Shown: piece by piece, positions 1 to 63,704 of the stretch
Numbering within the stretch: position 1 is the first letter of the stretch
Layout of the letters: every line of letters starts with the position of its first letter
NCBI GenBank assembly: GCA_964398885.1
Contig: CAYNOU010000002.1
Span: 22,762 to 86,761, forward strand
Direction: 5' to 3'
Length of the DNA: 64,000 nucleotides
From: an uncultured Candidatus Cloacimonadota bacterium
Lineage (GTDB): Bacteria; Cloacimonadota; Cloacimonadia; JGIOTU-2
Made by a program: the position numbers and the translations under genes
Notes under the pieces: generated by a model
Seen by the model: the letters and a program-made list of their open reading frames with translations, nothing else
The model's database searches: none
Told to the model about the DNA's origin: nothing

Positions 1-312
1 ATTTGCATAGTGACCTGTTCCACATCCAACATCAAGTAAAGAAACCTCCTGAAGGTCAATTCCTTCACGATTGCATAATTCAAGCATTAATCGACTGCCT
101 TCGTTGAGAATGCGTTGATTCTCTTCTTGTGATTTAATGCAACTTCCAACTCCACGCAAGTCAAAACCGTATTTTTTGTGGGTGTTTTTCCAAAAATATT
201 CTGCTTTATAATCATAATGTTTAGAATACCTAAACCATTTCAAAAAGACATAAATTCTATTAATCACTACGCGTATTGGATGTTTAAATAATTTAATAAG
301 CTTTTTATTCAT
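1..312 (-). CDS. Class I SAM-dependent methyltransferase, partial. The N-terminal part is present and the gene continues past the window start.
   Basis: Reverse-strand translation from the ATG at 310-312 gives MNKKLIKLFKHP...LLDVGCGTGHYAN, a SAM-binding motif I (GxGxG). The frame stays open to position 1. Confidence 0.55.
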   Translation of the reverse strand, partial: MNKKLIKLFKHPIRVVINRIYVFLKWFRYSKHYDYKAEYFWKNTHKKYGFDLRGVGSCIKSQEENQRILNEGSRLMLELCNREGIDLQEVSLLDVGCGTGHYAN

Positions 313-4256: not shown

Positions 4257-4378
4257 ATGAAAATCCTTTCTAACCACAAAGACACGAAGGTACAAAGATA
4301 AATGTAAAATTACGAATTACAAGTACATTGCGCTGATTCTAACACCATTTTTAATGGTGTTTTAATAAACAGTCCGCT

Positions 4379-4437
4379 CATGCCAGAGGCAGATCCTTCG
4401 GACAGCTGGCGGAGAACTTTTCGCTTGTATTGGCATG
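4379..4437. repeat. GC-rich palindromic repeat element, family A (CATGCCAGAGGCAGATCC...GGCGGAG), lying in the structured rph-tkt intergenic region.
   Basis: The 18-nt block catgccagaggcagatcc is identical to 39638-39655 and related to the perfect palindrome at 9594-9621. It is flanked by the inverted repeat catgcca/tggcatg. Confidence 0.6.
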
Positions 4438-8122: not shown

Positions 8123-8998
8123 TTACTTCTTCCTCAAACTTAAAGTTCCACTCGGATAAACTTTCAGATAATAGCTGCATTTTAAGTCAATGTTTTTATG
8201 AAGCTTAGCCATCAAAGTGTAATGACGAATCTGTTTTTTATATTGTTTTATTTCTTCTTCAAAAAGAAACCATATATTTGCTGTACTTTCTATTGCACGA
8301 GAAATACAATCTTCAGTCAAATAGATAGATGTTTCCCATCTATCAGGTTTTACTTTACCTGGAGAAAGGAAATAACTATCAACTAATTTATCATAATATT
8401 TATTAGATTTATATATTTGACTATAAAAATATTCATCAATCCCCGTCCCCGCGGTCCCCGATCCAATCGGGGAGGGGATAGTCGGTGATTTAATTCTATA
8501 TCTCCGTTTTCCAATATTCAGATGGAGAGCCCCAAAATTTTTTCTCACATCAGCTTCATAAACTTTATGTGGAACTTCTTCATATTCAAAGCGATATTTC
8601 CCATCTGTATGAAATGGTTGATGAAGGTCTGCAACATAATGGGAAATAACTCCTAATTCAAATACAATTATTTTCAAAGGATTATCTATAATCTTCTTTA
8701 AATAACCAGCACATTTTGGGTGATAGATAAGTGAATTTTTATTGGATAAAATTTCATGAATTAATATTGTTTCTTTTTGAATTTTTTTTACTACTGAACC
8801 GTAATGATAACCTTTTTCGTTTGGTGTGCAATTATAGTAATGATTTGTTGTATCACAAAATATTTTGTCAGGACAGATGATACCAAGTTCAAAATACTCG
8901 GGATAAACATCTATTAGCAGATTAAATTGCCGAGACATCTTTCTTAATGCCAATCGGCATATTTTAATATGAGTTGATGGATTCCAGGTCCAAATCAT
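8123..8998 (-). CDS. S1/P1 nuclease or zinc-dependent phospholipase C family-like protein.
   Basis: N-terminal MIWTWNPSTH (Trp/His zinc ligands) and HYVADLHQPFH resemble the H-x-x-D-x-H-Q-P-x-H motif of P1 nuclease/PLC. It contains an in-frame GC-rich palindrome insertion at 8439-8480. Confidence 0.4.
   Translation of the reverse strand: MIWTWNPSTHIKICRLALRKMSRQFNLLIDVYPEYFELGIICPDKIFCDTTNHYYNCTPNEKGYHYGSVVKKIQKETILIHEILSNKNSLIYHPKCAGYLKKIIDNPLKIIVFELGVISHYVADLHQPFHTDGKYRFEYEEVPHKVYEADVRKNFGALHLNIGKRRYRIKSPTIPSPIGSGTAGTGIDEYFYSQIYKSNKYYDKLVDSYFLSPGKVKPDRWETSIYLTEDCISRAIESTANIWFLFEEEIKQYKKQIRHYTLMAKLHKNIDLKCSYYLKVYPSGTLSLRKK
8439..8480. repeat. Nested GC-rich palindrome (tccccgatccaatcgggga core) embedded in-frame inside CDS 8123..8998.
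   Basis: atccccgtccccgcggtccccgatccaatcggggaggggat. It is related to the TCCCCAAT..ATTGGGGA intergenic hairpins at 39844 and 63669. It encodes the Gly/Ser/Thr-rich peptide PSPIGSGTAGTGID. Confidence 0.55.
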
Positions 8999-9519: not shown

Positions 9520-9591
9520 TGAATTAGTTGAATTGGTTGAATTTGTTGAATTGGTTGAATCAGTTAAATTAGTTCAACCAGTTTAACCAGT
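9520..9591. repeat. Eight tandem copies of a 9-bp unit (TGAATTNGT / TYAACCAGT) immediately upstream of the smpB start codon.
   Basis: tgaattagt tgaattggt tgaatttgt tgaattggt tgaatcagt taaattagt tcaaccagt ttaaccagt. The periodicity is seen directly. Confidence 0.7.
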
Positions 9592-9593
9592 TT

Positions 9594-9621
9594 CCGCCAG
9601 AGGCGGATCCGCCTCTGGCGG
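9594..9621. repeat. Perfect 28-bp palindrome ccgccagaggcggatccgcctctggcgg (repeat family A).
   Basis: It is a perfect inverted repeat. It shares GCCAGAGGCRGATCCGCC with the elements at 4379 and 39638. Confidence 0.7.
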
Positions 9622-9729
9622 ACAACCACTAGAATCTAATTTACTTTTTATAATATTTAATCATATCTGTGTTTATCTGTCCACCCTCCGTAGCATTGCT
9701 ATTGCGGAAGACGGGTGTAAATCTGTGGC

Positions 9730-10689: not shown

Positions 10690-10786
10690 ACCATCTCTCC
10701 TAACTTAATATCATCTCAAAACTTTACTCAAATTTACTGCATAAGATGAGAATAAATTTTTTAGGCAAGTTTTTCAGAAGGAAAGA

Positions 10787-11809
10787 TTAAAATGTGTAAT
10801 AAATTGAGTGAATGTTATAAAAAAGATATTTATTTTTTTTCTTAAGATTCTTCAAATACCATTTACAGGTTTTTCTTATTTCATCTTCAATTGTATGTTT
10901 TTGAACATATCCCATTTCGCGAATTTTTTCAGAATAGTATTCTGTTGATGTATCAAATTTTTTCATTCTGTCACTATTTATTGGTAAATCTTTTTTTGTA
11001 ATAAAAGCTAATATATCGAAAATTTTGCCGCCGAAAACAGCAAAAAATAATGGAATTCTAATAATTGGTAAACGGAATCCATCATTTAATGCAATAATTT
11101 CCATTAATCTTTTTACTGAAATATATGGTTTATCTAATGTATTGAAAATCTGCAAACCTGGCTTCATCCTTGATATTATAAAATCAGTCATCTCCACAAG
11201 ATTTTCCAATGAAATCATTGATTTAATATGTTTTCCATTTCCAATTGTTATCCAGGGTTTACGATGCATCATATTAATTAAATTATACATATTTGCGTAA
11301 TTATATGGACCATAAATTATTGATGGTCTTAAAAAGATAACTTGCCTTTTACTATCTTGCTTTAACCATTTTTCAATAACCTTTTCTCCAGCAAGTTTAC
11401 TTGCACCATATTCATTATCAGGTTGGAGCTTACCTGTTTCATCACAGGGAACAGATTTATGACCATATACAGAAACGGTACTGTAGTAAATGACTTTATT
11501 AATTTTTTGTTCAGAAGCGTATTCCATTAAAACTTTTGTGCCATATTCATTATTACTATAGTAGCTTTCTTTTGTGATTCCCCAATCGTGTTTCGCCGCC
11601 GCACAATGAATTATCAAATTAAAATGTTTATCATTAAATTTTCGTAAATCTTTTATATTCCGTATGTCCCCAATTATTGTATGTGGATGTTTTTCTCGTA
11701 AACAAATATCACTGTTATCTATCCCCCAAATCTCATGCCCTTTTTCCTCAAGGAACCACATCAATCTGGAACCGACAAATCCGTTTGAACCTGTGATAAA
11801 TATGTTCAT
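10787..11809 (-). CDS. NAD-dependent epimerase/dehydratase (SDR family).
   Basis: MNIFITGSNGFVGSRLMWFLEEKGHEIWGIDNS is a Rossmann GxxGxxG motif, and the size is SDR-like. Confidence 0.65.
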   Translation of the reverse strand: MNIFITGSNGFVGSRLMWFLEEKGHEIWGIDNSDICLREKHPHTIIGDIRNIKDLRKFNDKHFNLIIHCAAAKHDWGITKESYYSNNEYGTKVLMEYASEQKINKVIYYSTVSVYGHKSVPCDETGKLQPDNEYGASKLAGEKVIEKWLKQDSKRQVIFLRPSIIYGPYNYANMYNLINMMHRKPWITIGNGKHIKSMISLENLVEMTDFIISRMKPGLQIFNTLDKPYISVKRLMEIIALNDGFRLPIIRIPLFFAVFGGKIFDILAFITKKDLPINSDRMKKFDTSTEYYSEKIREMGYVQKHTIEDEIRKTCKWYLKNLKKKNKYLFYNIHSIYYTF

Positions 11810-16997: not shown

Positions 16998-19519
16998 CTA
17001 TCTTATTATAATCATCTTCTTTATTTCATTGTAACTCTCAGTTTTCAGTTGATAAAAGTAAATACCATTAGAAAGTGGACTACCATTTTCATCTTTTCCA
17101 TCCCAGATGATATTAGTCATTTGACATTGATTATTAGTCATTTGGTAAAGAGTTCTCACCAACTGACCTTTTATATTATAGATTTTTATATTTGATAATC
17201 TATGTAAACCTGGGGCTAAAAAGGAAATAGTAGTGGAAGTGCTAAAAGGATTAGGATAATTCTGATATAATAATATATCTGATGAAGATGTATAGAAATC
17301 ATCAATACCTTCCCCTTGCCATTCATAACAACCCATATCAACAATACTATTATATATTCTTGGATTTCCATCCAAATCAAATGGTGGTAGATTAAGACCT
17401 GTTGTATCAGGATTACCAGCATCAATACAGGGAGAATCATAATATAAATGATAATTGCTATTTAGTGTATCTACAAACTGCGGGTCAACAAACAAGTTAT
17501 AATAGATGTCGCATGAATCCTCATTTGCATTGACCGTAACAATTACTCCGAAATATGGGGGCACTCCAAAACCATTTATATCATTTTGCCAAAATAGATT
17601 ATATTCCAAAGTAGTAAGGATAGAATCCGCATAAATCCCATAACCATAATCTTCTCCATTATTACTAAAAACTATATTGTTTAAAATATTAGGAGAAGAT
17701 GAATTGGTTCTAATTCCATATCCATAACCATAACCATAACCACTATTACTAGAATGATACATACTCCCACCATCACCTTTCCCTGCATTATCACCTATCG
17801 TGTTATTATTTATAATTGGAGAAGAATTATTACAATTTATACCAAAGCCATATCCCTTACCCCCAGAACAATATCCCTCACCAATTCCACCATCTCCGCC
17901 ATTATCACTTATAATATTATCGTTAATACTTGGATAGGATGAATTAACACAGTATATTCCTGAACCATAACCATCTTCTGCAGGCCAACTTAAAGACTTA
18001 CCGGCATTACCACCATTTTTAATAATTGTATTATTACTAATATTCGGAGATGAATTATCACAATAGATTCCATATCCATTACCAGAACCACTTGATGGTG
18101 TCCTACTTTCACTACCATTACCATTATTATTGCTTATAATATTGAAACCATATCCTTTACTACCTAAAAACTGATAATAATAATCTCCACCTTCACCGCC
18201 ATTATTACCTATAATATTATTGTTAATATCTGGACAAGATGAATTTACACAGTATATTCCTGAGCCATAACCATCTCCAGGAGGATTTCCATCACCACCA
18301 TCACGACCATTATTAATTATTGTGTTATTGCTAATACTTGGAGAAGATGCATCACAATAAATCCCATAAGTTGCATATTCAACTTTAGAGTATGAGATTA
18401 AACTATTGGAAGAAGAATTCCCTTCAAATTTAATATGATTCCAATCGTTATGACGAGGTTCCTGTTCTCCTGAAGTAAAAAGAATAGAATCTGTTTCTGT
18501 TCCTTCCGCAAATAAGGTGCCATAAATAGTAAAAGAATAAAAACCCATAAACTTAATAGTAACACCATGTTCAATTATTAAAGTATCACTGAAATTAACA
18601 GAAATATCACCAACTACATTGTATGTTTCACCTGTTGACCAAATACCACTTTGTGAGCCTATTACTTCAAGGCTGAGTGTTACATTAGCAAGCGTTGTAT
18701 CTTCAACAAATTCAATTTCCTCAGGAATAGTATAAGGTTCCCAACCTTCATGAGAATAATGAACAGTATAAATTCCTGCTGAAAGCATAATAGCAAATGA
18801 GCCATCTTCATTTGTAAAGGTGCTGTCTGTTGTTGCTGAAGGATTTACACCAGAAAATAGAACTTTTGTTCCTAAATGATTGCTCATTCCTGCTAAATAG
18901 CAGAAGCCATCAACAGTAATACAATCATGATTTAGTGTAATTCCCGTTAATGTTGTATCTTCAAGAAGTTCAATTTCACCAGGAATAGTATAAGATTCCC
19001 AATACTTATGAGAATATTGCACAGTATAAGTTCCCGAAGAAATCTCTATAGCAAATGAGCCATCTTCATTTGTAAAGGTGCTGTCTGTAAAAGCAGGTGG
19101 AGATACTGCATTGAACAATACCTTTGTTCCTGAATGGTCACTCATTCCTGCTAAATAGCAGAAGCCATCAATGGTAACATCAACACTATAGAGGGTAATG
19201 TCTGGCAAAGTAGTATCTTCAAAAAATGCAATTTGACCAGGTATAGTATAGGATCCCCAACCTTCATGGGAATAATGTACAGTATAAATTCCTTCTGAAA
19301 GCACTATAGCAAATGAGCCATCTTCATTTGTAAAGGTGCTATCTGTAACAGCGGAAGGACTAACAGCATATAAAAGAGAACCTTGGTTCCCGAATGGTCG
19401 CTCATTCCTGCTAAATAGCAGAAGCCATCAACAGTAACTGACCGTGTTTGTGCCATTGCATTATTACCAATAATTAAAGGTAATAATAGCAAGAATGTTA
19501 GAATTACAATTTTTTTCAT
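16998..19519 (-). pseudogene. T9SS-sorted secreted protein with three CarboxypepD_reg-like repeats and beta-helix repeats. It is disrupted by a frameshift near 19370-19385, which separates the signal peptide.
   Basis: The 71-aa ORF (19304..19519) carries the signal peptide plus the first GFCYLAGMSDHSGTKVLF repeat. The 768-aa ORF continues in another frame with the same repeat twice more, NNxI beta-helix repeats, and a C-terminal NYPNPF...KKMIIIR sorting domain. The three repeats are near-identical at DNA level, so an assembly artifact is possible. Confidence 0.55.
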
Positions 19520-32856: not shown

Positions 32857-33109
32857 TAAAGTTCTCCTTAGGCTTACACTTGAATGAATTCTGCAAAAAT
32901 ATGGAAAATTCCCCTAACTTGCCGTTCTCGTGATCCCCGCATCCGCGAGGAGGGAATCCAGTAGAAATACTTGTCCTCACGAAAGTGGGGAAAGGACTGT
33001 GGATTTCCAATAGATTCCCAATCAAGTTGGGAATGACAATGTTGGGAATGACATGCGTATGCCATTTTGCAGATCTCATTTACAATTTAAAACAGTGCAA
33101 AAAAACCTT

Positions 33110-35082: not shown

Positions 35083-37866
35083 CTAATCCACAGTAATTGA
35101 TTTTGAAACATTTTTTGGTACATCGGGATGGACGCCATGTCTGGGCACATGGAGTTTATTAAGATATTTCATCTTTTTTATACTCATTCTCAAAGCTAAA
35201 AGTTGTAATACAACAATGCTTGAGAAAACTGTTAGAAGAGTATCACCGGTTTTTGGAAGTTCAATATAACCCCATTTATAGTCTGGATGTGCAGATGGAA
35301 TTGAACTAATGTTCTGGAGTAAGTCATCATTTTCTTCGGCAATAAGAAAGCTATTGGCACCCCGAATTTTATGTGTATTAATTTGCGAAATTGTTAATCT
35401 AACATCTCGCTCTTCAGGGCCAGTGATATAGATTAAAGGATAGTTTCTATATAGAGATGCAAAGAAATCAAATTCTTTAACTGCCTGTTCAAAGAGTTTC
35501 AAGGAATGAGGTAATAAATTAAAAGGTCTAACCCTATCAAAAATATAATCACCAAGCGCGGTTATCACTTTTGGAATATCTTCCTCAGTTATCACATCAT
35601 CGCTTTGGGTTTCAGAGTAGATAAATTCAATTGCTTTATTATACTTTTTCATCAAAGATTCTATATTCCATATTCCAAAAACTGTATTTTCTCCCAGTAT
35701 TGTATTTGGTCCGTGTTTAAATTCCGCTCCTTCTCTTCCTTCTGTATGATTCAAAACTGTTTCACGGATTTTTAAAGCGCCTTCTTGTGCAACGGGGCTT
35801 AACTTTGTTGCCAAAATATGTATGCTGGGCTCAAGAAAAATTTGTTCGGCGACATTTTCAATCTGAGCCTGGGTTGTATTAATCGTTTCGCTTATAATGT
35901 TTGGAATATAATCAAGTGTCTCAAAACGCTGAGTAATCTGTTGCTCTAATTGCTCTATTTCCTTCTTATCATACGAATTAGCCTTCATATGTTTAAGTCT
36001 AACTTCAGCGGTTCGTATTGCTAAATAATATAAAAGAGTAATTTGATTGATGTAACTTTTTGTTGCAGGCACTGCCATTTCTGGACCACATCTAATAGGC
36101 AGACAGAGTTGTGATTTCTCCTGTCCAAGAGTGGAATTTACATTATTTACAATGGCAATTCTATAAATATCTTTGCCCAATTTTTCTACATCGCTAAAAA
36201 TATCTATTAAATCTTTTGTTTCGCCACTTTGACTTATGCCAATGATTATGTCCTTATCTCGCAATGACTTTGAATATTGGCCGCGGAAATCACCTGGTAT
36301 AATAGGTATTATCTCAACTCCGGCGATTTCGTTAAAAAACAGGGCAGCGGTTTTGCTAGCATGATAGGAAGTACCGCAAGATGCAGCGTAAATATTACAA
36401 TGTTTATCCCAGGTATTAGTTATCATTTCAAGAAAACGATCTATTTTTTTCTGAAAATTTAAAGTTTCACTCTGCTCATCAATGGCGTCCATTATTTTAG
36501 CTAATAAAAGATAGTCTTCAGAAATTTCATTCCCAATTATATCTAAAAAAACAGTTGAATTTTCGGAATAGAATTCATCTTTGGTAAAATCTGGGTCAGT
36601 AAATTTATCAAACAATTCTGGAATCTCTTTCTTGCATTCTCTTTTTATCTCTATAAAGGATTTATCAGAAAGGAAATTTTGGAAAATTTTTGTCGGTTTT
36701 TCAAAGTCAGATGTTTCGGTGATACTTTTGCAAATTGTTTGATAGTTCTTTAACACCTTACTATCTTTTAAAATGCTACAAATTTTTTTGCTGTCTTCAC
36801 TTCCATTCTTTATAAATTGAATAAGCTTCCTACTACTTTCTACCTCAGCGTAAATTTCTTGTTCCATAAAATATTTAAATGGAGGTGAAAGCTTAATATC
36901 TTCAGCTCTTAACTTACTACGCTTCGGTTTAACATTTATCTTCTCACCTTCTTTGTAATGTTTATAAGTTCCATCCGCCAGACCCGATTCTATCCCCGAT
37001 ACATTCCCGATATATCGGGAGAGCTGGCGGATTGTTAAATCTTTTAATGCATATATTTGATATCTGTCGTGAGAAAATTCAATAAACTCATTTTCATATA
37101 TTTTGATTAATACTTTTGTATAATGTAAAATTGCAGTTAAGTCAGAGGATGCAAGAATAAATCTGTTACCTTCATATTCTCCGACACCCATATAAAGACT
37201 GCTTCCAGCCTTAATTGCGTAAACAATTTCTGTAACAGGGTCAACTATTACAGCAGCATAAGAACCTTCTAACTTTTTGTTTGCCTCAATTATTGCCTTT
37301 CGCATAGAATCCTTGCGAATCTGTGGTTCTAAATGTCTTTTATCTGGAAATTTCTCAATATACATATCAAAATATTGCTCAACAGTATGAACCAGTATTT
37401 CTCCATCATTATTACTTATAACATCATGTCCTTCATCAATAAGAAACTGTTTTAATGCGCAGGTATTGGTAATATTTCCATTATGAGCCCCGTAGATATG
37501 CTTTTTGCACTTTACTTCATGAGGTTGAGAATTTTCCTTGTTAACTGAACCGAAAGTTGCCCATCTAACCTGCCCACAGAATATTTTTCCTGATAGTTTT
37601 TCTATTCCCAAAGTTTTAACAAGTTCAGAAGGTGCACCTACATCTTTCCTGACTACAATTTTTCCTTTATCATCCTGAACAATAGCACCAGTTGAGTCAT
37701 AACCACGATATTCAAGACTTTTTAAAAGTTGGGCTGCTATCTTTCCCATTTTAATGGTCTGTTTGGCAAAGACTAAGCCAAGAACTCCACAACCAATTCC
37801 AATAACTGGGATTCTGATTTGAAAATCTTTTAATTTACTTAATATCTTTATTAATAATTTTTTCAT
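35083..37866 (-). CDS. glmS: Glutamine--fructose-6-phosphate aminotransferase (isomerizing), long form with insertions and a 25-aa N-terminal extension.
   Basis: CGVLGLV (Ntn Cys), LEYRGYDSTG, RWATFG and AHNGNITN match the GlmS glutaminase domain. SIS domains (ASCGTSYHAS...). The C-terminal ...KHGP...PKNVSKSITVD matches the GlmS C-terminus. 927 aa versus about 610 aa typical. Confidence 0.65.
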   Translation of the reverse strand: MKKLLIKILSKLKDFQIRIPVIGIGCGVLGLVFAKQTIKMGKIAAQLLKSLEYRGYDSTGAIVQDDKGKIVVRKDVGAPSELVKTLGIEKLSGKIFCGQVRWATFGSVNKENSQPHEVKCKKHIYGAHNGNITNTCALKQFLIDEGHDVISNNDGEILVHTVEQYFDMYIEKFPDKRHLEPQIRKDSMRKAIIEANKKLEGSYAAVIVDPVTEIVYAIKAGSSLYMGVGEYEGNRFILASSDLTAILHYTKVLIKIYENEFIEFSHDRYQIYALKDLTIRQLSRYIGNVSGIESGLADGTYKHYKEGEKINVKPKRSKLRAEDIKLSPPFKYFMEQEIYAEVESSRKLIQFIKNGSEDSKKICSILKDSKVLKNYQTICKSITETSDFEKPTKIFQNFLSDKSFIEIKRECKKEIPELFDKFTDPDFTKDEFYSENSTVFLDIIGNEISEDYLLLAKIMDAIDEQSETLNFQKKIDRFLEMITNTWDKHCNIYAASCGTSYHASKTAALFFNEIAGVEIIPIIPGDFRGQYSKSLRDKDIIIGISQSGETKDLIDIFSDVEKLGKDIYRIAIVNNVNSTLGQEKSQLCLPIRCGPEMAVPATKSYINQITLLYYLAIRTAEVRLKHMKANSYDKKEIEQLEQQITQRFETLDYIPNIISETINTTQAQIENVAEQIFLEPSIHILATKLSPVAQEGALKIRETVLNHTEGREGAEFKHGPNTILGENTVFGIWNIESLMKKYNKAIEFIYSETQSDDVITEEDIPKVITALGDYIFDRVRPFNLLPHSLKLFEQAVKEFDFFASLYRNYPLIYITGPEERDVRLTISQINTHKIRGANSFLIAEENDDLLQNISSIPSAHPDYKWGYIELPKTGDTLLTVFSSIVVLQLLALRMSIKKMKYLNKLHVPRHGVHPDVPKNVSKSITVD

Positions 37867-38669: not shown

Positions 38670-39362
38670 CTAATTATTCCTTAATATAGCTTCAGCAATT
38701 TTCAAATCAAACTTATCAGTTATCTTAATATTTTGGGGGGAACCCTGCAAAACAAATACATCTTCTCCAAGAATTTCCACTAATTCTGCATCATCATTTA
38801 CTTTGAGTTTTTTGCTTTCCGCATTTTTATGTGCTTTATAAATTAAGTCATAATAGAATGCTTGAGGTGTAAAAATTTCCCATAACTGTTTTCTATCTAA
38901 AGTGGATATGACTCTATTCTGCTTAATTCTCTTAATGGTATTTTTTGCTGGTATGCCGAGTGTAACTGCTCTTTTTTCTTCAGTCAGTTTAACAATTTCC
39001 TGAATTTCTTTAACCTTTACGAGAGGTCTAACCCCATCGTGAATTACAACATAATCAGTTGCTTCGGGGCACATTTTTAATGCATTAAATACGGATTGTT
39101 GTCTTGTTACGCCTCCATCAACAATGATAAATTTCTTTTTAGGAAGATTATATTCAGAAAAGAGTATTTTTTCAGCAAGTTTTCTATCTTCTGAACTGAT
39201 TGTGATAATTACTTTATCAAAAATTTCCGCTTTTAAAAATTTCTCTACTGTATGGACTATAATTGGTTTACCCGCAAGTGGCATAAACTGCTTTTTTATA
39301 GGTGGGTTCATCCTTTCACCTTTTCCTGCGGCTGTAATGATGGCTGATATTTTGTTTTTCAT
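38670..39362 (-). CDS. ispD: 2-C-methyl-D-erythritol 4-phosphate cytidylyltransferase.
   Basis: MKNKISAIITAAGKGERMN...KQF is the IspD N-terminal signature. 230 aa. Confidence 0.85.
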   Translation of the reverse strand: MKNKISAIITAAGKGERMNPPIKKQFMPLAGKPIIVHTVEKFLKAEIFDKVIITISSEDRKLAEKILFSEYNLPKKKFIIVDGGVTRQQSVFNALKMCPEATDYVVIHDGVRPLVKVKEIQEIVKLTEEKRAVTLGIPAKNTIKRIKQNRVISTLDRKQLWEIFTPQAFYYDLIYKAHKNAESKKLKVNDDAELVEILGEDVFVLQGSPQNIKITDKFDLKIAEAILRNN

Positions 39363-39555
39363 CTGAAAATAGCTTTTTTGCCACGAACCACACGAACTAA
39401 TCGGTCTCGGCCAGTCTTGGCTAGGCCAAGCCTAGACAGGCGCCCAGACGGACACGAACAATATTTTGTTCATAAAATTAAATCCGTTTAAAATTGTTTA
39501 CCCTGTGGAATAAAATCAAAGATTTTAATGCAAAGCATTATTCCACAGGGTGAAT

Positions 39556-39616
39556 AATTTTCATAATCCTTTGTGTCCGATTTGTTTTCGGGACATGTAT
39601 GTTTCATATGAAAATA
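39556..39616. repeat. About 60-bp direct repeat, copy 1, containing the hairpin gtccgatttgttttcgggac.
   Basis: aattttcataatcctttgtgtccgatttgttttcgggacatgtatgtttcatatgaaaat. A second copy lies at 39728-39785. Confidence 0.7.
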
Positions 39617-39618
39617 CC

Positions 39619-39683
39619 TTGCCACAGAGACACATCATGCCAGAGGCAGATCCGCCTTAGGCGGAGAGAACACAGAGATAATT
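39619..39683. repeat. Composite repeat: a family-B element (ttgccacagagacac ... agaacacagagataat) interrupted by a family-A palindrome (catgccagaggcagatccgccttaggcggag).
   Basis: Direct comparison with 28992-29020, 34378-34411, 4379-4396 and 9594-9621. Confidence 0.65.
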
Positions 39684-39727
39684 TCTATTTCTTTTTTGAT
39701 TATCCTCTGTTTCAAGCCTCTGTGTAT

Positions 39728-39785
39728 AATTTTCATACTCCTTTGTGTCCCGATTTATCGGGACATGTATGTTTCATATGAAAAT
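39728..39785. repeat. About 60-bp direct repeat, copy 2, containing the hairpin gtcccgatttatcgggac.
   Basis: aattttcatactcctttgtgtcccgatttatcgggacatgtatgtttcatatgaaaat. The hairpin also occurs at 59112-59129. Confidence 0.7.
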
Positions 39786-39975
39786 CACCTTTTTATTATT
39801 TCAATTCGGGATAAACCCGAATCTACCCACCAGTTGTCGGGTATCCCCAATTTAATTGGGGACAGGTTTATCCTGTTGCTGCAATAAAACAAGAAACTCA
39901 TCTTTAATCTTGATTCATCTTTTTAGGCCCTTGTAGTTATCACTTTTTTTCACAAATTCTTTGGTGAAAAATCTT

Positions 39976-40212
39976 TTATAGGTCACCAAAGACCTCATCT
40001 TCAGTTTCTATATTTCCGACCTCAAAATCCTTAAAACCTTTTCTAATTGAGTTCATAAGTTCCGCATTAAGATTTATATCAATTGTTTCTATTAGCTTTA
40101 TAAAATCATCAATATTGATTAATACAGACTTAATCTCATTATTTGAATAAATATATTCTACTTTAGGAATATTATACTGTCTTGTAATCTTCATAAGTTC
40201 ACTTGGTAACAT
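39976..40212 (-). CDS. Small protein, possibly a Phd/YefM-type antitoxin, orphan.
   Basis: 78 aa. ...ITRQ...EIKSVLINIDDFIKLIETIDINLNAELMNSIRKG... resembles the Phd/YefM fold pattern. No partner toxin ORF lies downstream, only the repeat hotspot. Confidence 0.3.
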   Translation of the reverse strand: MLPSELMKITRQYNIPKVEYIYSNNEIKSVLINIDDFIKLIETIDINLNAELMNSIRKGFKDFEVGNIETEDEVFGDL

Positions 40213-40270
40213 TGTTGTTCCTTTCTCTCCGATTGGAGTAATTTTTATAAAAAATCTAAAATTCTAGAAA

Positions 40271-41209
40271 TTAAGTCAAGTTTCTAATATCAATTATACA
40301 TCTTGCAATGCTTTCATCTAACTTTATTTGCTCAATAAGTTCTTCTTTATCTGCGAATTTTTTTTCATCACGAATTCTTCTTATAAAAAAGAGTTCTATC
40401 TCTTGCGAATAAACCTCTTTATCAAAATCAAAAATATAAGTTTCAATAAATTTTTTTCTATTATTCTTTTTTATAGTTGGTTTTTTGCCAATATTTGTTA
40501 GTCCCCACCCTTTTTTTCCTTTCAATTTAATTTTTGTAAGATACACCCCACATTGTGGAAGTAGCTTTCTTGGTTCTAATGGCTCAAGGTTCGTGGTTGG
40601 AAATCCTAATTGCCTGCCAATTTTATCGCCTGGAACGACCTTACCTAAAATAGAATAATTTCTACCTAACATTTTTTGAGCAGACTCTATTTTCCCATCT
40701 CTAATATATTCCCGAATTTTAGTGCTGGATACAATTTTCTTTCCCCTCCTTACTTCTTTTACAATATCCGTTTTATAACTATATGACTTTTCATACTTTT
40801 TCAATAGATGATAATCACCTGTTCTGTCCTTCCCAAAATGCCAATCATAACCAACTATGATTTCTTTAGCTACTAACTTATCAACAAAATACGCTTTAAT
40901 AAAATCTTCAGGTGAAAGATTTGCTAACTTTGTATCAAAGTCAAGCCAGAGCACATAATCAATGCCCATATTTTTGAGAAATTCTTCTTTTTTTACCTTT
41001 TCTGTAAGGAGATATGGAAAATGCCTATTATTTAGAATTTCCAATGGGTGTGGATGATAGGTCATAACGACTGATACTCCACCAATTGCTTTTGCTCTTT
41101 TCACAAGAGTTTGCATAATCTTCTGATGTCCAAGATGCACTCCATCAAAAGTGCCAACAGTAACAACAGGATTTTTCAATTTATGCTTCATTTTGTGTAT
41201 GCTTTTCAT
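40271..41209 (-). CDS. ribF: Bifunctional riboflavin kinase / FMN adenylyltransferase.
   Basis: VVTVGTFDGVHLGHQKIMQTLVKRA...VMTYHPHP is the RibF N-terminal FAD synthetase signature. Confidence 0.85.
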   Translation of the reverse strand: MKSIHKMKHKLKNPVVTVGTFDGVHLGHQKIMQTLVKRAKAIGGVSVVMTYHPHPLEILNNRHFPYLLTEKVKKEEFLKNMGIDYVLWLDFDTKLANLSPEDFIKAYFVDKLVAKEIIVGYDWHFGKDRTGDYHLLKKYEKSYSYKTDIVKEVRRGKKIVSSTKIREYIRDGKIESAQKMLGRNYSILGKVVPGDKIGRQLGFPTTNLEPLEPRKLLPQCGVYLTKIKLKGKKGWGLTNIGKKPTIKKNNRKKFIETYIFDFDKEVYSQEIELFFIRRIRDEKKFADKEELIEQIKLDESIARCIIDIRNLT

Positions 41210-41249: not shown

Positions 41250-41280
41250 TTGCGTTCCCAAGCTGGGCTTGGGAACGAGA
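41250..41280. repeat. Palindromic repeat family D: TTGCGTTCCCAA-[hairpin]-TTGGGAACGAGA.
   Basis: ttgcgttcccaagctgggcttgggaacgaga. The same outer arms enclose a different inner hairpin at 63657-63704. Confidence 0.65.
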
Positions 41281-60662: not shown

Positions 60663-60757
60663 AGCCGAGAGGGCAGGAATCGAACCTGCCACAGACGGTT
60701 TTATCCGCCCACTACTGATTTTGAAGACCAGTTGGAACACCAGTTCCATCCTCTCAA
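60663..60757 (-). tRNA. selC: tRNA-Sec (selC), anticodon UCA.
   Basis: Minus-strand fold: 8-bp acceptor (TTGAGAGG/CCTCTCGG), 6-bp D-stem TGGAAC/GTTCCA with the 4-nt loop TGGT, 6-bp anticodon stem with loop CTTCAAA (UCA at 34-36), a long variable arm, and a 5-bp T-stem GCAGG/CCTGC with loop TTCGATT. About 94-95 nt. CCA is not encoded. Confidence 0.75.
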
Positions 60758-63656: not shown

Positions 63657-63704
63657 TTGCGTTCCCAATCCCCAATTCAATTGGGGAGGGCTTTGGGAAC
63701 GAGA
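63657..63704. repeat. Palindromic repeat family D with a nested inner hairpin (tccccaattcaattgggga).
   Basis: ttgcgttcccaatccccaattcaattggggagggctttgggaacgaga. The outer arms are identical to 41250-41280. The inner hairpin recurs at 39844-39862. Confidence 0.65.

What the first reader, a model, noticed from the sequence alone, without database searches (positions are those of the whole stretch)
8439..8480. GC-rich nested palindrome embedded in-frame inside a protein-coding gene
atccccgtccccgcggtccccgatccaatcggggaggggat lies within CDS 8123..8998. It is translated as a Gly/Ser/Thr/Pro-rich linker (PSPIGSGTAGTGID) and resembles the intergenic TCCCC...GGGGA hairpin family. This suggests a REP/MITE-like insertion tolerated as an in-frame insertion, or an mRNA structure with regulatory function.
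Basis: seen in the sequence. Interest (0 to 1): 0.5.

Follow-up and report, generated by a model that had tools for sequence, protein, structure and literature searches.

The report
Selfish GC-rich hairpin inside a gene
A 35-42 base GC-rich hairpin from a dispersed repeat family has landed in frame inside a phospholipase-C-like gene of an AT-rich Cloacimonadota bacterium. [quoted passage not shown]

Summary
A 71% GC nested palindrome (quoted string 8439-8479; full three-tier hairpin 8438-8490) lies in frame in CDS 8123..8998(-), a Zn-dependent phospholipase C/S1-P1 superfamily gene, in a 32% GC genome.

It is an insertion. Most orthologues are 275-277 aa. The closest one (L001, 94% nt identity) lacks exactly 42 nt here. 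Genes about 94-95% nt identical show four alleles at this site: 276, 277, 281 and 291 aa.

It is not a local oddity. The same 35-nt core, RTCCCC-TCCCCGAT-NNN-ATCGGGGA-CCGC-GGGGAY, recurs at unrelated loci in related low-GC contigs. It sits in frame, in the same orientation and frame (peptide PSPIxSGTAGT), in a thioredoxin-fold protein and a T9SS cargo protein, both with orthologues lacking it, and in FtsZ. It also occurs intergenically.

Its 19-nt inner hairpin is a common module, often nested in the loop of REP-type hairpins. A RAYT transposase gene flanked by that REP type exists in a related contig.

AlphaFold places the insert in a low-confidence coil. A second in-frame nested palindrome sits in the GlmS-like gene (36973-37032).

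The regulatory mRNA reading is not. How the element moves is inferred, not shown.

The parts
8123..8998 (-). Host gene: Zn-dependent phospholipase C / S1-P1 nuclease superfamily protein, 291 aa. It sits in the conserved order smpB - PLC - ABC ATPase - FtsX permease.
   Evidence: ORF. PF00882 E 2.3e-13. 77 homologues, mostly 275-277 aa, from Cloacimonadota. Synteny. PDB relative 8cqm, a phospholipase C.
8438..8490 (-). Complete three-tier hairpin. On the coding strand: AATCACCG / ATTA-type bulge / TCCCC / TCCCCGAT-TGG-ATCGGGGA / CCGC bulge / GGGGA / CGGGGATT.
   Evidence: RNA fold -26.6 kcal/mol. DNA fold of the + strand -14.9 kcal/mol, z -2.9.
8445..8479 (-). 35-nt core element ATCCCC-TCCCCGAT-TGG-ATCGGGGA-CCGC-GGGGAC. 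This is the unit shared with unrelated loci.
   Evidence: Identical or 1-mismatch copies in L099, L109, L074/L061 and L002. Shared two-tier consensus structure, with variation confined to the loop.
8446..8487 (-). The 42 nt (14 codons, PTIPSPIGSGTAGT) absent from the closest orthologue L001. The boundary is ambiguous by 1 nt.
   Evidence: DNA alignment A2. Codon view. The blastn alignment with L001 breaks at 8445/8487.
8455..8473 (.). Inner 19-nt hairpin module TCCCCGAT-CCA-ATCGGGGA, the commonest building block of the family.
   Evidence: The variable stem position covaries across copies: A-T 26, G-C 24, mixed 5.
39844..39862 (.). Intergenic copy of the inner hairpin module, TCCCCAATTTAATTGGGGA.
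   Evidence: It lies in the 0.9-kb non-coding stretch 39363-40270.
63661..63700 (.). REP-type hairpin GTTCCCAA...TTTGGGAAC with the TCCCC hairpin (63669-63687) nested in its loop. Same build as the high-copy 'type I' repeat of related contigs.
41254..41276 (.). Plain REP-type hairpin GTTCCCAAGC-TGG-GCTTGGGAAC with no nested module. This hairpin type flanks the RAYT gene in L079.
36973..37032 (-). Second in-frame nested GC-rich palindrome of the window, inside the 927-aa GlmS-like CDS 35083..37866. The outer stem ATCCGCCAG/CTGGCGGAT comes from another hairpin family. The inner part is the TCCCGAT..ATCGGGA module plus extra ATCGGGG(A) units. It is translated as ...RQLSRYIGNVSGIESGLADG...
   Evidence: RNA fold -32 kcal/mol, z -3.65. 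The 15-aa segment is absent from an 85%-identical homologue and from all others aligned. It lies between the GATase and SIS domains.

Best explanation
**What it is.** The palindrome is one copy of a family of short, GC-rich, nested-hairpin repeats. The family resembles REPs and yeast mitochondrial GC clusters, and it populates this AT-rich Cloacimonadota lineage. The copy entered the PLC gene and survives because the net length change is a multiple of three. The frame in use reads it as an uncharged Pro/Ser/Gly/Thr/Ala stretch (IPSPIGSGTAGT) in a disordered surface loop. It is best seen as selfish or neutral DNA that the protein tolerates, not as a functional part of the gene.

**Shown here.**
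- It is an insertion.
- The site is highly polymorphic among near-identical strains.
- The same 35-nt element sits at unrelated coding and intergenic loci.
- Coding copies share one orientation and frame.
- The insert maps to a low-confidence coil in the predicted structure.

**Inferred: how it moves.** The hairpins are copied as single-stranded DNA hairpins into the loops of existing hairpins, or into short quasi-palindromic sites. Two routes are possible: a REP-associated tyrosine (HUH/Y1) transposase such as the one found in a related contig, or template switching / gene conversion between copies that share the TCCCC/GGGGA motif. Hairpin-promoted slippage then trims or expands the tiers, giving the 276/277/281/291-aa allele series. 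Selection keeps only frame-preserving, loop-compatible outcomes.

**Most likely history at this site (inferred).** A 19-nt hairpin arrived first (the 281-aa type). The 35-nt core then went into its loop (the 291-aa type, as in the window). Deletions produced the shorter alleles.
For: **Insertion**
- Alignment A1 shows the 14-aa gap in 19 of 23 orthologues.
- L001 lacks exactly 42 nt.

**Polymorphism**
- The >=91%-identical protein cluster holds 291-, 281-, 277- and 276-aa alleles that differ only at this site.

**Same element at unrelated loci**
- A metagenome pattern scan gave 85 stretches, about 50 of them in 29-35% GC contigs.
- The 41-nt string in L109 differs from the window at 2 positions and has unrelated flanks.
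- The identical 35-nt core lies in the Trx gene (L099), the T9SS-cargo gene (L109), and an intergenic site (L074/L061); the FtsZ copy (L063) has a variant bulge.
- Orthologues lacking the insert exist for Trx and for the T9SS protein.
- L136 (Trx with the insert) and L001 (PLC without it) come from the same MAG.

**Frame and composition**
- All six frames of the core are open, but all four coding copies use the single frame free of charged residues.
- The insert is built from codons rare in this genome: TCG 3%, ACG 5%, GCG 7%, CCG 8% of their families.

**Structure**
- AlphaFold2 mean pLDDT is 85.9. Residues 175-183 score below 50 and lie in coil between helices 141-157 and 185-199.
- The alignment's invariant His/Asp/Glu residues are all outside the insert.

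**Nesting and REP context**
- RTTCCCAA...TTGGGAAY hairpins have inner lengths of 5-8, 23-24 or 38 nt, that is with 0, 1 or 2 nested TCCCC tiers.
- A RAYT gene (NF047646, 109.5 bits against a cut-off of 80) in L079 is flanked on both sides by that hairpin type. The window carries the same type at 41254 and 63661.

**Independent second case**
- The window's GlmS-like gene holds another in-frame nested palindrome.

**Source**
- The window's organism occurs in the Ga03155xx metagenome series, where the family is abundant.
Against: - No transposition event, donor copy or cognate enzyme was identified for the TCCCC element itself.
- The only RAYT found is flanked by a different hairpin (GTTCCCAAAC...). 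It lies in another contig, and there is none in the window.
- No target-site duplication or common target sequence is shared by five independent copies. This fits HUH transposases but equally fits non-transposase copying.
- At both sites where an allele without the core is available, the core replaces about 5 nt of the target rather than adding cleanly.
- The outer tier of the PLC hairpin uses flanking bases that are present in L001, so part of the palindrome could have grown locally.
- The PLC gene is mosaic and the 291-aa allele sits on two haplotypes. The order of gains and losses therefore cannot be fixed.
- In about 560 kb around PLC orthologues of other Cloacimonadota species, the hairpin occurs only at the PLC site. 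The family appears restricted to one sub-lineage.
- Translation of the insert has not been demonstrated.
Confidence: 0.8

Rival explanations
1. The palindrome was generated locally. Template switching (quasi-palindrome correction) and slippage at a short pre-existing inverted repeat, AATC-GGG-GATT, built the hairpin step by step, with no imported mobile element.
For: - The 12-nt insertion of the 281-aa type is an exact inverted copy of the adjacent 11 nt plus one base. It is flanked by the 8-nt direct repeat ATTAAATC.
- The outer tier uses flanking bases present in L001.
- The Trx alleles differ by what looks like a tandem duplication of ATTNNATCGGGG.
Against: - The 35-nt core, including its CCGC bulge, is identical or nearly so in unrelated genes and in an intergenic site. 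Independent local growth cannot explain that.
- The 19-nt module occurs in about 60 distinct contexts.
- Local processes probably modify the copies but do not explain where they came from.
Confidence: 0.08
2. The hairpin is a functional mRNA structure in the coding region, for example a ribosome pause site, an RNase target or a stabiliser, kept for regulation of the PLC gene.
For: The coding-strand RNA fold is strong (-26.6 kcal/mol). The inner stem is identical in window and L002.
Against: - It is absent from a 94%-identical orthologue and from nearly all other orthologues.
- The middle and outer stems carry uncompensated mismatches in both window and L002.
- The same element lies in unrelated genes and between genes.
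- There is no Rfam match even at E <= 1.
- The fold z-score is only -2.1 against shuffles of the same composition.
Confidence: 0.05
3. The 14 residues are an adaptive flexible linker selected for protein function, and the palindromic DNA is incidental.
For: The peptide is linker-like and 12 of 14 residues are conserved between window and L002.
Against: - Four length alleles coexist among genes about 94-95% nt identical.
- The segment uses codons rare in this genome.
- The same peptide, encoded by the same DNA, appears in functionally unrelated proteins.
- The segment is predicted to be disordered.
Confidence: 0.04
4. The element is skipped during translation (programmed bypassing, as with Magnusiomyces byp elements or T4 gene 60) or removed from the mRNA, so it never appears in the protein.
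For: The analogy with GC-cluster-derived byp elements in yeast mitochondria (PMC8811140).
Against: - The insert is in frame with no stop codon, and all six frames of the core are open. Bypass is therefore not needed.
- All coding copies preserve the frame. Under bypass there would be no such constraint.
Confidence: 0.02
5. Assembly or sequencing artefact.
For: GC-rich hairpins are hard to sequence.
Against: - Identical DNA is found in independent assemblies from different samples.
- P0001 lies on 10 contigs from NCBI, JGI and Logan.
- A diverged copy sits at the same site in an ENA assembly.
Confidence: 0.01

Closest known systems
Rickettsia palindromic elements (RPEs); Ogata et al. 2000 Science 290:347 and 2002 Genome Res 12:808, as summarised in PMC10969869
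   Same: - A dispersed palindromic repeat found both between genes and in frame inside unrelated genes.
- Coding copies add a conserved peptide.
- Insertions appear compatible with the protein fold (here a low-pLDDT surface coil).
- Presence or absence varies among close relatives.
   Different: - RPEs are about 100-150 bp and AT-rich like their host, in an alphaproteobacterial intracellular parasite.
- This element is 35-42 nt and 71% GC in a 32% GC genome.
- It is built from nested tiers of a 19-nt hairpin, in free-living anaerobic Cloacimonadota.
- Sequence similarity to RPE families was not tested.
GC clusters of yeast mitochondrial DNA, including the in-frame polymorphic insertions in var1 (Hudspeth 1984; Weiller 1989; Wu & Hao 2015; reviewed in PMC8811140)
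   Same: - Short GC-rich palindromic clusters scattered in a very AT-rich genome, mostly intergenic.
- Occasional in-frame insertions in a coding gene that cause strain-specific protein length polymorphism.
- Clusters merge or nest to form new ones.
- They are associated with recombination. Here the insert sits at a similarity breakpoint of a mosaic gene.
   Different: - The host is a bacterial chromosome, not an organelle.
- No AG/TAG terminal repeats or other target-site duplication were seen.
- A RAYT/REP system is present in a related genome.
- No bypassing is needed.
REP / REPIN sequences mobilised by RAYT (REP-associated tyrosine transposases) (PMC3116915, PMC3337134)
   Same: - 20-40-nt imperfect GC-rich palindromes in many copies.
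- A bona fide RAYT gene flanked by inverted hairpins exists in a related contig.
- The window carries that hairpin type, once with the TCCCC module nested in its loop.
- The absence of a target-site duplication fits HUH/Y1 enzymes (own knowledge).
   Different: - REPs are by definition extragenic; this copy and at least four others are intragenic and in frame.
- The RAYT-flanking hairpin (GTTCCCAAAC...) is not the element in the PLC gene.
- No GTAG-like conserved tetranucleotide or REP-doublet organisation was established.
Intragenic ERIC/MITE insertions that form in-frame fusions (Delihas 2007, cited in PMC10969869)
   Same: Small non-autonomous repeats occasionally tolerated inside ORFs.
   Different: - MITEs have terminal inverted repeats plus target-site duplications, and sizes of 50-500 bp.
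- Neither the duplication nor the size criterion is met here.

Membership tests
REP/REPIN-RAYT system | Short (about 20-40 nt) imperfect palindrome present in many dispersed copies | tested here: met
   About 60 distinct contexts of the 19-nt module in 0.96 Mb of low-GC loci. About 50 low-GC hits in the metagenome scan.
REP/REPIN-RAYT system | Extragenic location | tested here: not met
   This copy lies in a CDS. So do the copies in the Trx, T9SS-cargo, FtsZ and GlmS-like genes. Many other copies are intergenic.
REP/REPIN-RAYT system | A cognate RAYT gene flanked by the same REP | tested here: inconclusive
   RAYT found in L079 (NF047646, 109.5 bits against a cut-off of 80). It is flanked by GTTCCCAAAC/GTTCCAAAAC hairpins, not by the TCCCC element. 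No RAYT in the window or in the other loci.
REP/REPIN-RAYT system | Conserved tetranucleotide next to the hairpin, and inverted REP doublets (REPINs) | not tested
   Only noted that the hairpin is followed by NNGC (GGGC, CCGC or TCGC) in three element types. No systematic analysis was done.
MITE | Target-site duplication flanking the element | tested here: not met
   No shared direct repeat flanks the five independent copies of the 35-nt core. About 5 nt of target are replaced at the PLC and Trx sites.
MITE | Size about 50-500 bp, with terminal inverted repeats derived from an IS | tested here: not met
   The core is 35 nt and the whole insert 42 nt. No parent IS was sought.
Rickettsia palindromic elements (RPE) | The same repeat inserted in frame in unrelated genes, encoding a conserved peptide | tested here: met
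   PSPIxSGTAGT appears in PLC, Trx-fold protein and T9SS cargo; VPSPIKSGIIGD appears in FtsZ. Alleles without the insert are shown.
Rickettsia palindromic elements (RPE) | Insertion at positions compatible with the fold (surface, away from the active site) | tested here: met
   In the AF2 model the insert lies in coil, with pLDDT below 50 at residues 175-183. The invariant catalytic-type residues lie elsewhere. This is a prediction, not an experiment.
Rickettsia palindromic elements (RPE) | About 100-150-bp element belonging to the RPE-1..10 sequence families | tested here: not met
   The length is 35-42 nt.
Yeast mitochondrial GC clusters | Short GC-rich palindrome in an AT-rich genome, mostly intergenic, with in-frame polymorphic coding insertions | tested here: met
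   71% GC against about 31%. Intergenic copies. Allele series.
Yeast mitochondrial GC clusters | Terminal AG/TAG repeats taken as target-site duplication; mitochondrial host | tested here: not met
   No terminal repeats. The host is a Cloacimonadota chromosome.
Programmed translational bypass elements (byp, T4 gene 60) | The insert interrupts the frame or carries a stop codon, so it must be skipped | tested here: not met
   The insert is in frame with no stop, and all six frames are open.

The most novel reading that the evidence does not exclude
These Cloacimonadota carry a bacterial counterpart of mitochondrial GC clusters. It would be a set of tiny (19-35 nt) hairpin replicators that preferentially invade the loops of other hairpins. 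That would explain the nested tiers and the growth in 15-nt steps even in non-coding copies. The copying would run through a single-strand DNA route, RAYT-dependent or by template switching. The replicators would enter essential genes (FtsZ, a GlmS-like enzyme, a thioredoxin-fold protein, PLC) often enough to create strain-level protein length polymorphism and local recombination hot spots. That would make them a new class of intragenic selfish element and a natural generator of loop insertions.
Probability: 0.3. Interest if true: 0.75.

Novelty: new member of a known kind. Interest (0 to 1): 0.6.

Why it matters
In-frame selfish palindromes in protein-coding genes have been described as a curiosity, mainly in Rickettsia (RPEs) and yeast mitochondria (var1 GC clusters).

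This window shows the same phenomenon in a free-living, uncultivated phylum, with a much smaller and GC-rich element:
- at least five genes are affected, two of them in this window;
- orthologues or near-identical alleles without the insert exist for four of the five genes (none was sought for FtsZ), and the PLC site has four length alleles among near-identical strains;
- a RAYT/REP system is present nearby in sequence space.

Three consequences follow:
- It offers a tractable natural system for asking how hairpin repeats move and why some insertions are tolerated.
- It warns annotators that 10-15-residue Pro/Ser/Gly/Thr loops in Cloacimonadota proteins may be repeat-derived.
- It provides strain-level markers for these populations.

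Tried and rejected
- **Rfam.** Nothing at gathering threshold except tRNA-Sec, and nothing at E <= 1 around the element. Only sub-threshold chance hits in 39300-40300.
- **Dating the insertion with a gene tree.** Abandoned. The flanking ABC and FtsX genes and the PLC gene give conflicting relationships, and sliding-window identity shows a mosaic PLC gene.
- **Copies in other Cloacimonadota.** In about 560 kb around PLC orthologues of GTDB species representatives, the hairpin is found only at the PLC site of L010. The family is therefore not phylum-wide.
- **Target-site duplication or common target motif.** None found in five independent copies.
- **Transposase in the window.** tblastn with the L079 RAYT gave no hit in the window. 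Because those sequences came from memory, the negative part is weak.
- **Covariation among the 35-nt copies.** None; they are nearly identical. The only covariation signal is between the A-T and G-C subfamilies of the 19-nt module, and this may reflect two lineages rather than repeated compensation.
- **L123.** This hit (PSPMGSGNG in a NUMOD-like protein) was judged a probable chance match, because its hairpin is imperfect.
- **Literature.** Searches for Cloacimonadota palindromic repeats returned only CRISPR-related mentions.
Full report
**1. The observation.**

The quoted 41-mer is at window 8439-8479. It lies inside ORF 8123..8998 on the minus strand (291 aa), and the frame reads ...RIKSPTIPSPIGSGTAGTGIDEY.... 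The window is about 32% GC throughout. The segment is 71% GC and is the longest GC-rich island in the 64 kb.

The inner palindrome TCCCCGATCCAATCGGGGA has no chance expectation in shuffled sequence. TCCCC...GGGGA hairpins occur 5 times against 0.34 expected.

Folding the coding strand as RNA gives a three-tier hairpin spanning 8438-8490 at -26.6 kcal/mol. It has 8 + 5 + 7 base pairs, with 4-nt bulges. The + strand as DNA gives the mirror structure. Identical DNA occurs in two independent JGI assemblies.

The host protein matches Pfam Zn_dep_PLPC above threshold and S1-P1_nuclease below threshold. Its only solved relative by sequence is a phospholipase C. All named homologues are from Cloacimonadota.

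**2. It is an insertion, and the site is hypervariable.**

Of 77 homologues, most are 274-278 aa. In alignment A1 the segment PTIPSPIGSGTAGT has no counterpart in 19 of 23 sequences.

The closest orthologue, L001, has about 94% nt identity in the gene and 95% in the flanking ABC and FtsX genes. It lacks exactly 42 nt. L002 is a more distant lineage (82% nt in PLC, 72% in the flanks). It carries the same insert at the same place with 4 of 42 differences.

The 90%-identity protein cluster of the window's protein (members 91-95% identical), together with the 277-aa P0002, holds four alleles that differ essentially only here.

| Allele | Locus | Sequence at the site |
|---|---|---|
| 276 aa | L138 | AAA GAT ATT GAT |
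| 277 aa | L001 | AAA TCG GGG ATT GAT |
| 281 aa | L137 | AAA TCC CCA ATT AAA TCG GGG ATT GAT |
| 291 aa | window | the full insert |

- The 281-aa type is itself a near-perfect 23-nt palindrome. It also occurs in L003, L010 and, decayed, in L004.
- It can give the 277-aa type by slippage between its 8-nt direct repeats ATTAAATC.
- The 291-aa type equals the 281-aa type with the loop-proximal AAATC replaced by a 35-nt core. This is my reading.
- The 291-aa allele sits on two different upstream haplotypes.
- The PLC gene is mosaic relative to its flanks, and a change of nearest relative falls right at the insert.

The order of events therefore cannot be fixed. Recombination at or near the hairpin is likely.

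**3. The element is a copy of a dispersed family.**

A scan of JGI metagenome contigs for TCCCCRATNNNATYGGGGAGGG returned 85 stretches. About 50 lie in 29-35% GC contigs, concentrated in the Ga03155xx series. The window's own organism occurs in that series.

Three facts matter.

(a) The 35-nt core RTCCCC-TCCCCGAT-NNN-ATCGGGGA-CCGC-GGGGAY recurs with 0-1 mismatches at unrelated loci. The 41-nt version in L109 differs from the window at 2 positions and has unrelated flanks.

(b) Copies occur in several contexts.

| Locus | Host gene | Peptide or context | Evidence |
|---|---|---|---|
| L099 | thioredoxin-fold/TPR protein | ...NPVPSPIVSGTAGTNEID... | orthologues read NPDSSEID; a +15-aa variant is in L135 and L136 |
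| L109 | C-terminal sorting domain of a 2047-aa T9SS cargo protein | IPSPIRSGTAGTG | absent from 59-64% identical orthologues |
| L063 | N-terminal tail of FtsZ | VPSPIKSGIIGD | |
| L133 | glycosyltransferase | opposite orientation | |
| L074 / L061 | none (intergenic) | just downstream of a stop codon | |

(c) L136 (Trx with the insert) and L001 (PLC without it) belong to the same MAG. That genome carries the family even though its PLC site is empty.

**4. Architecture of the family.**

The 19-nt hairpin TCCCCRATT-N-AATYGGGGA is the common module. It appears in about 60 distinct contexts in 0.96 Mb of low-GC DNA. Its variable stem position is complementary in 50 of 55 copies.

It is typically nested in another hairpin, next to a 4-nt bulge.
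- **Type I**, the commonest, is ATTCCCAA-[module]-GGGC-TTGGGAAT with conserved flanks.
- **Type II** has a further tier.
- The in-gene core is RTCCCC-[module]-CCGC-GGGGAY.

RTTCCCAA...TTGGGAAY hairpins fall into inner-length classes of 5-8, 23-24 and 38 nt.

The plain version flanks, on both sides, a gene that NCBIfam identifies as a REP-associated tyrosine transposase (109.5 bits against a cut-off of 80). The window has the plain hairpin at 41254 and 33014, and the nested form at 63661.

A further family, TCCGCC-NNN-GGCGGA, is also present.

**5. Why the coding copies are tolerated.**

All six frames of the core are open. The four coding copies in the common orientation all use the one frame that yields only uncharged residues, mostly small ones (IPSPIGSGTAG); the other five contain Arg, Asp or Glu. 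The insert uses codons that are rare in this genome, as expected for imported non-coding DNA.

AlphaFold2 (mean pLDDT 85.9) places residues 171-184 in coil between two helices, with pLDDT below 50 at 175-183. The alignment's invariant His/Asp/Glu residues lie outside the insert.

At both sites where an allele without the core is available, the 35-nt core replaces about 5 nt, giving a net +30 nt. This is consistent with selection for frame-preserving outcomes.

**6. A second case in the same window.**

The 927-aa GlmS-like gene (35083..37866, minus strand) contains AATCCGCCAGCTC-TCCCGATATATCGGGA-ATGT-ATCGGGGA-TAGA-ATCGGG-TCTGGCGGATGG at 36973-37032.
- It folds at -32 kcal/mol, z -3.65.
- It is translated as ...RQLSRYIGNVSGIESGLADG... 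between the GATase and SIS domains.
- An 85%-identical homologue, and every other homologue aligned across this region, lacks the 15-aa segment.

**7. Mechanism: shown and inferred.**

Shown:
- insertion;
- multiplicity of copies;
- nesting;
- polymorphism;
- a bias in frame and orientation;
- location in a predicted loop.

Inferred:
- The copies spread as hairpin DNA into loops or quasi-palindromic sites. The route is either a RAYT-type HUH enzyme or template switching / gene conversion among motif-sharing copies. HUH enzymes act on single-stranded hairpins and make no target duplication (own knowledge; PMC3116915, PMC3337134). Gene conversion among copies is what has been proposed for yeast GC clusters (PMC8811140).
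- Hairpin-promoted slippage then creates the allele series.

The cognate enzyme of the TCCCC element is unknown.

**8. Comparison with known systems, and verdict.**

The closest parallels are Rickettsia RPEs (PMC10969869) and yeast mitochondrial GC clusters (PMC8811140). REP/RAYT is the nearest mechanistic family, but its extragenic criterion fails for this copy and the RAYT link is indirect. MITE criteria (target-site duplication, size) are not met. No literature on such repeats in Cloacimonadota was found.

I classify the finding as a new member of a known kind, of moderate to good interest.

Noticed in passing
window 36973-37032 (in CDS 35083..37866, minus strand): A second in-frame GC-rich nested palindrome, in a 927-aa GlmS-like gene. 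It is a 15-aa insertion (LSRYIGNVSGIESGL) absent from an 85%-identical homologue. It combines the TCCGCCAG/CTGGCGGA hairpin family with the TCCCGAT module.
   Followed up: yes
window 9593-9622, 4372-4417, 39635-39669: Another GC-rich hairpin family, TCCGCC-NNN-GGCGGA. At 9593-9622 two units form a perfect 30-nt palindrome. About 20 copies occur in the low-GC loci, mostly intergenic.
   Followed up: partly
L079 10790-11332 (minus strand), hairpins at 10756-10778 and 11374-11396: A REP-associated tyrosine transposase gene (NF047646, 109.5 bits) flanked by GTTCCCAAAC-TGA-GTTTGGGAAC and GTTCCAAAAC-TTA-GTTTTGGAAC. The same hairpin type occurs in the window at 41254, 63661 and 33014.
   Followed up: partly
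window 8123-8998 against L001-L007: The PLC gene is mosaic. Upstream of the insert and at the 3' end, the window resembles L002/L005. Just downstream of the insert it resembles L003/L004. The flanking genes place L003/L004 closer throughout. A change of nearest relative coincides with the hairpin.
   Followed up: partly
L099 1687-1721; L135 and L053 (same gene); L136: The thioredoxin-fold/TPR gene has three alleles: no insert (NPDSSEID), +10 aa and +15 aa. The longest contains a tandem duplication of ATTNNATCGGGG inside the element.
   Followed up: yes
RTTCCCAA...TTGGGAAY hairpins in the low-GC loci; the PLC and Trx allele series: Net size steps are multiples of 15 nt even in non-coding copies (inner lengths 8, 23, 38). 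Each nesting replaces the loop plus the first 2-5 nt of one arm of the host hairpin. Unexplained.
   Followed up: partly
window 39363-40270: A 0.9-kb stretch without a long ORF, packed with hairpins. It holds two copies of a repeat of about 50 nt (cctttgtgtcc(c)gattt..tcgggacatgtatgtttcatatgaaaat at about 39569 and about 39741). Only sub-threshold Rfam hits.
   Followed up: no
window 32857-33109: An intergenic cluster of ATTCCCAAC-type half-sites, a plain REP-type hairpin (33014-33034) and a degenerate GGATTCCCTCC...GCGGGGAT element.
   Followed up: no
window 60664-60757 (minus strand): A selenocysteine tRNA gene, the only tRNA in the window.
   Followed up: no
window 9522-9592: A run of degenerate 9-10-nt direct repeats (GTTGAATTG / GTTTAACCA) forming a long imperfect inverted repeat just upstream of smpB.
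   Followed up: no
window 18694-18919 and 19210-19437: Two 228-nt segments 85% identical to each other, in direct orientation.
   Followed up: no
L020, L038, L045, L046: PLC homologues (35-47% identity) on contigs of MAGs labelled Armatimonadota, Aenigmatarchaeota and Hadarchaeota, the last on a 1.03-Mb contig. This could be binning error or lateral transfer.
   Followed up: no
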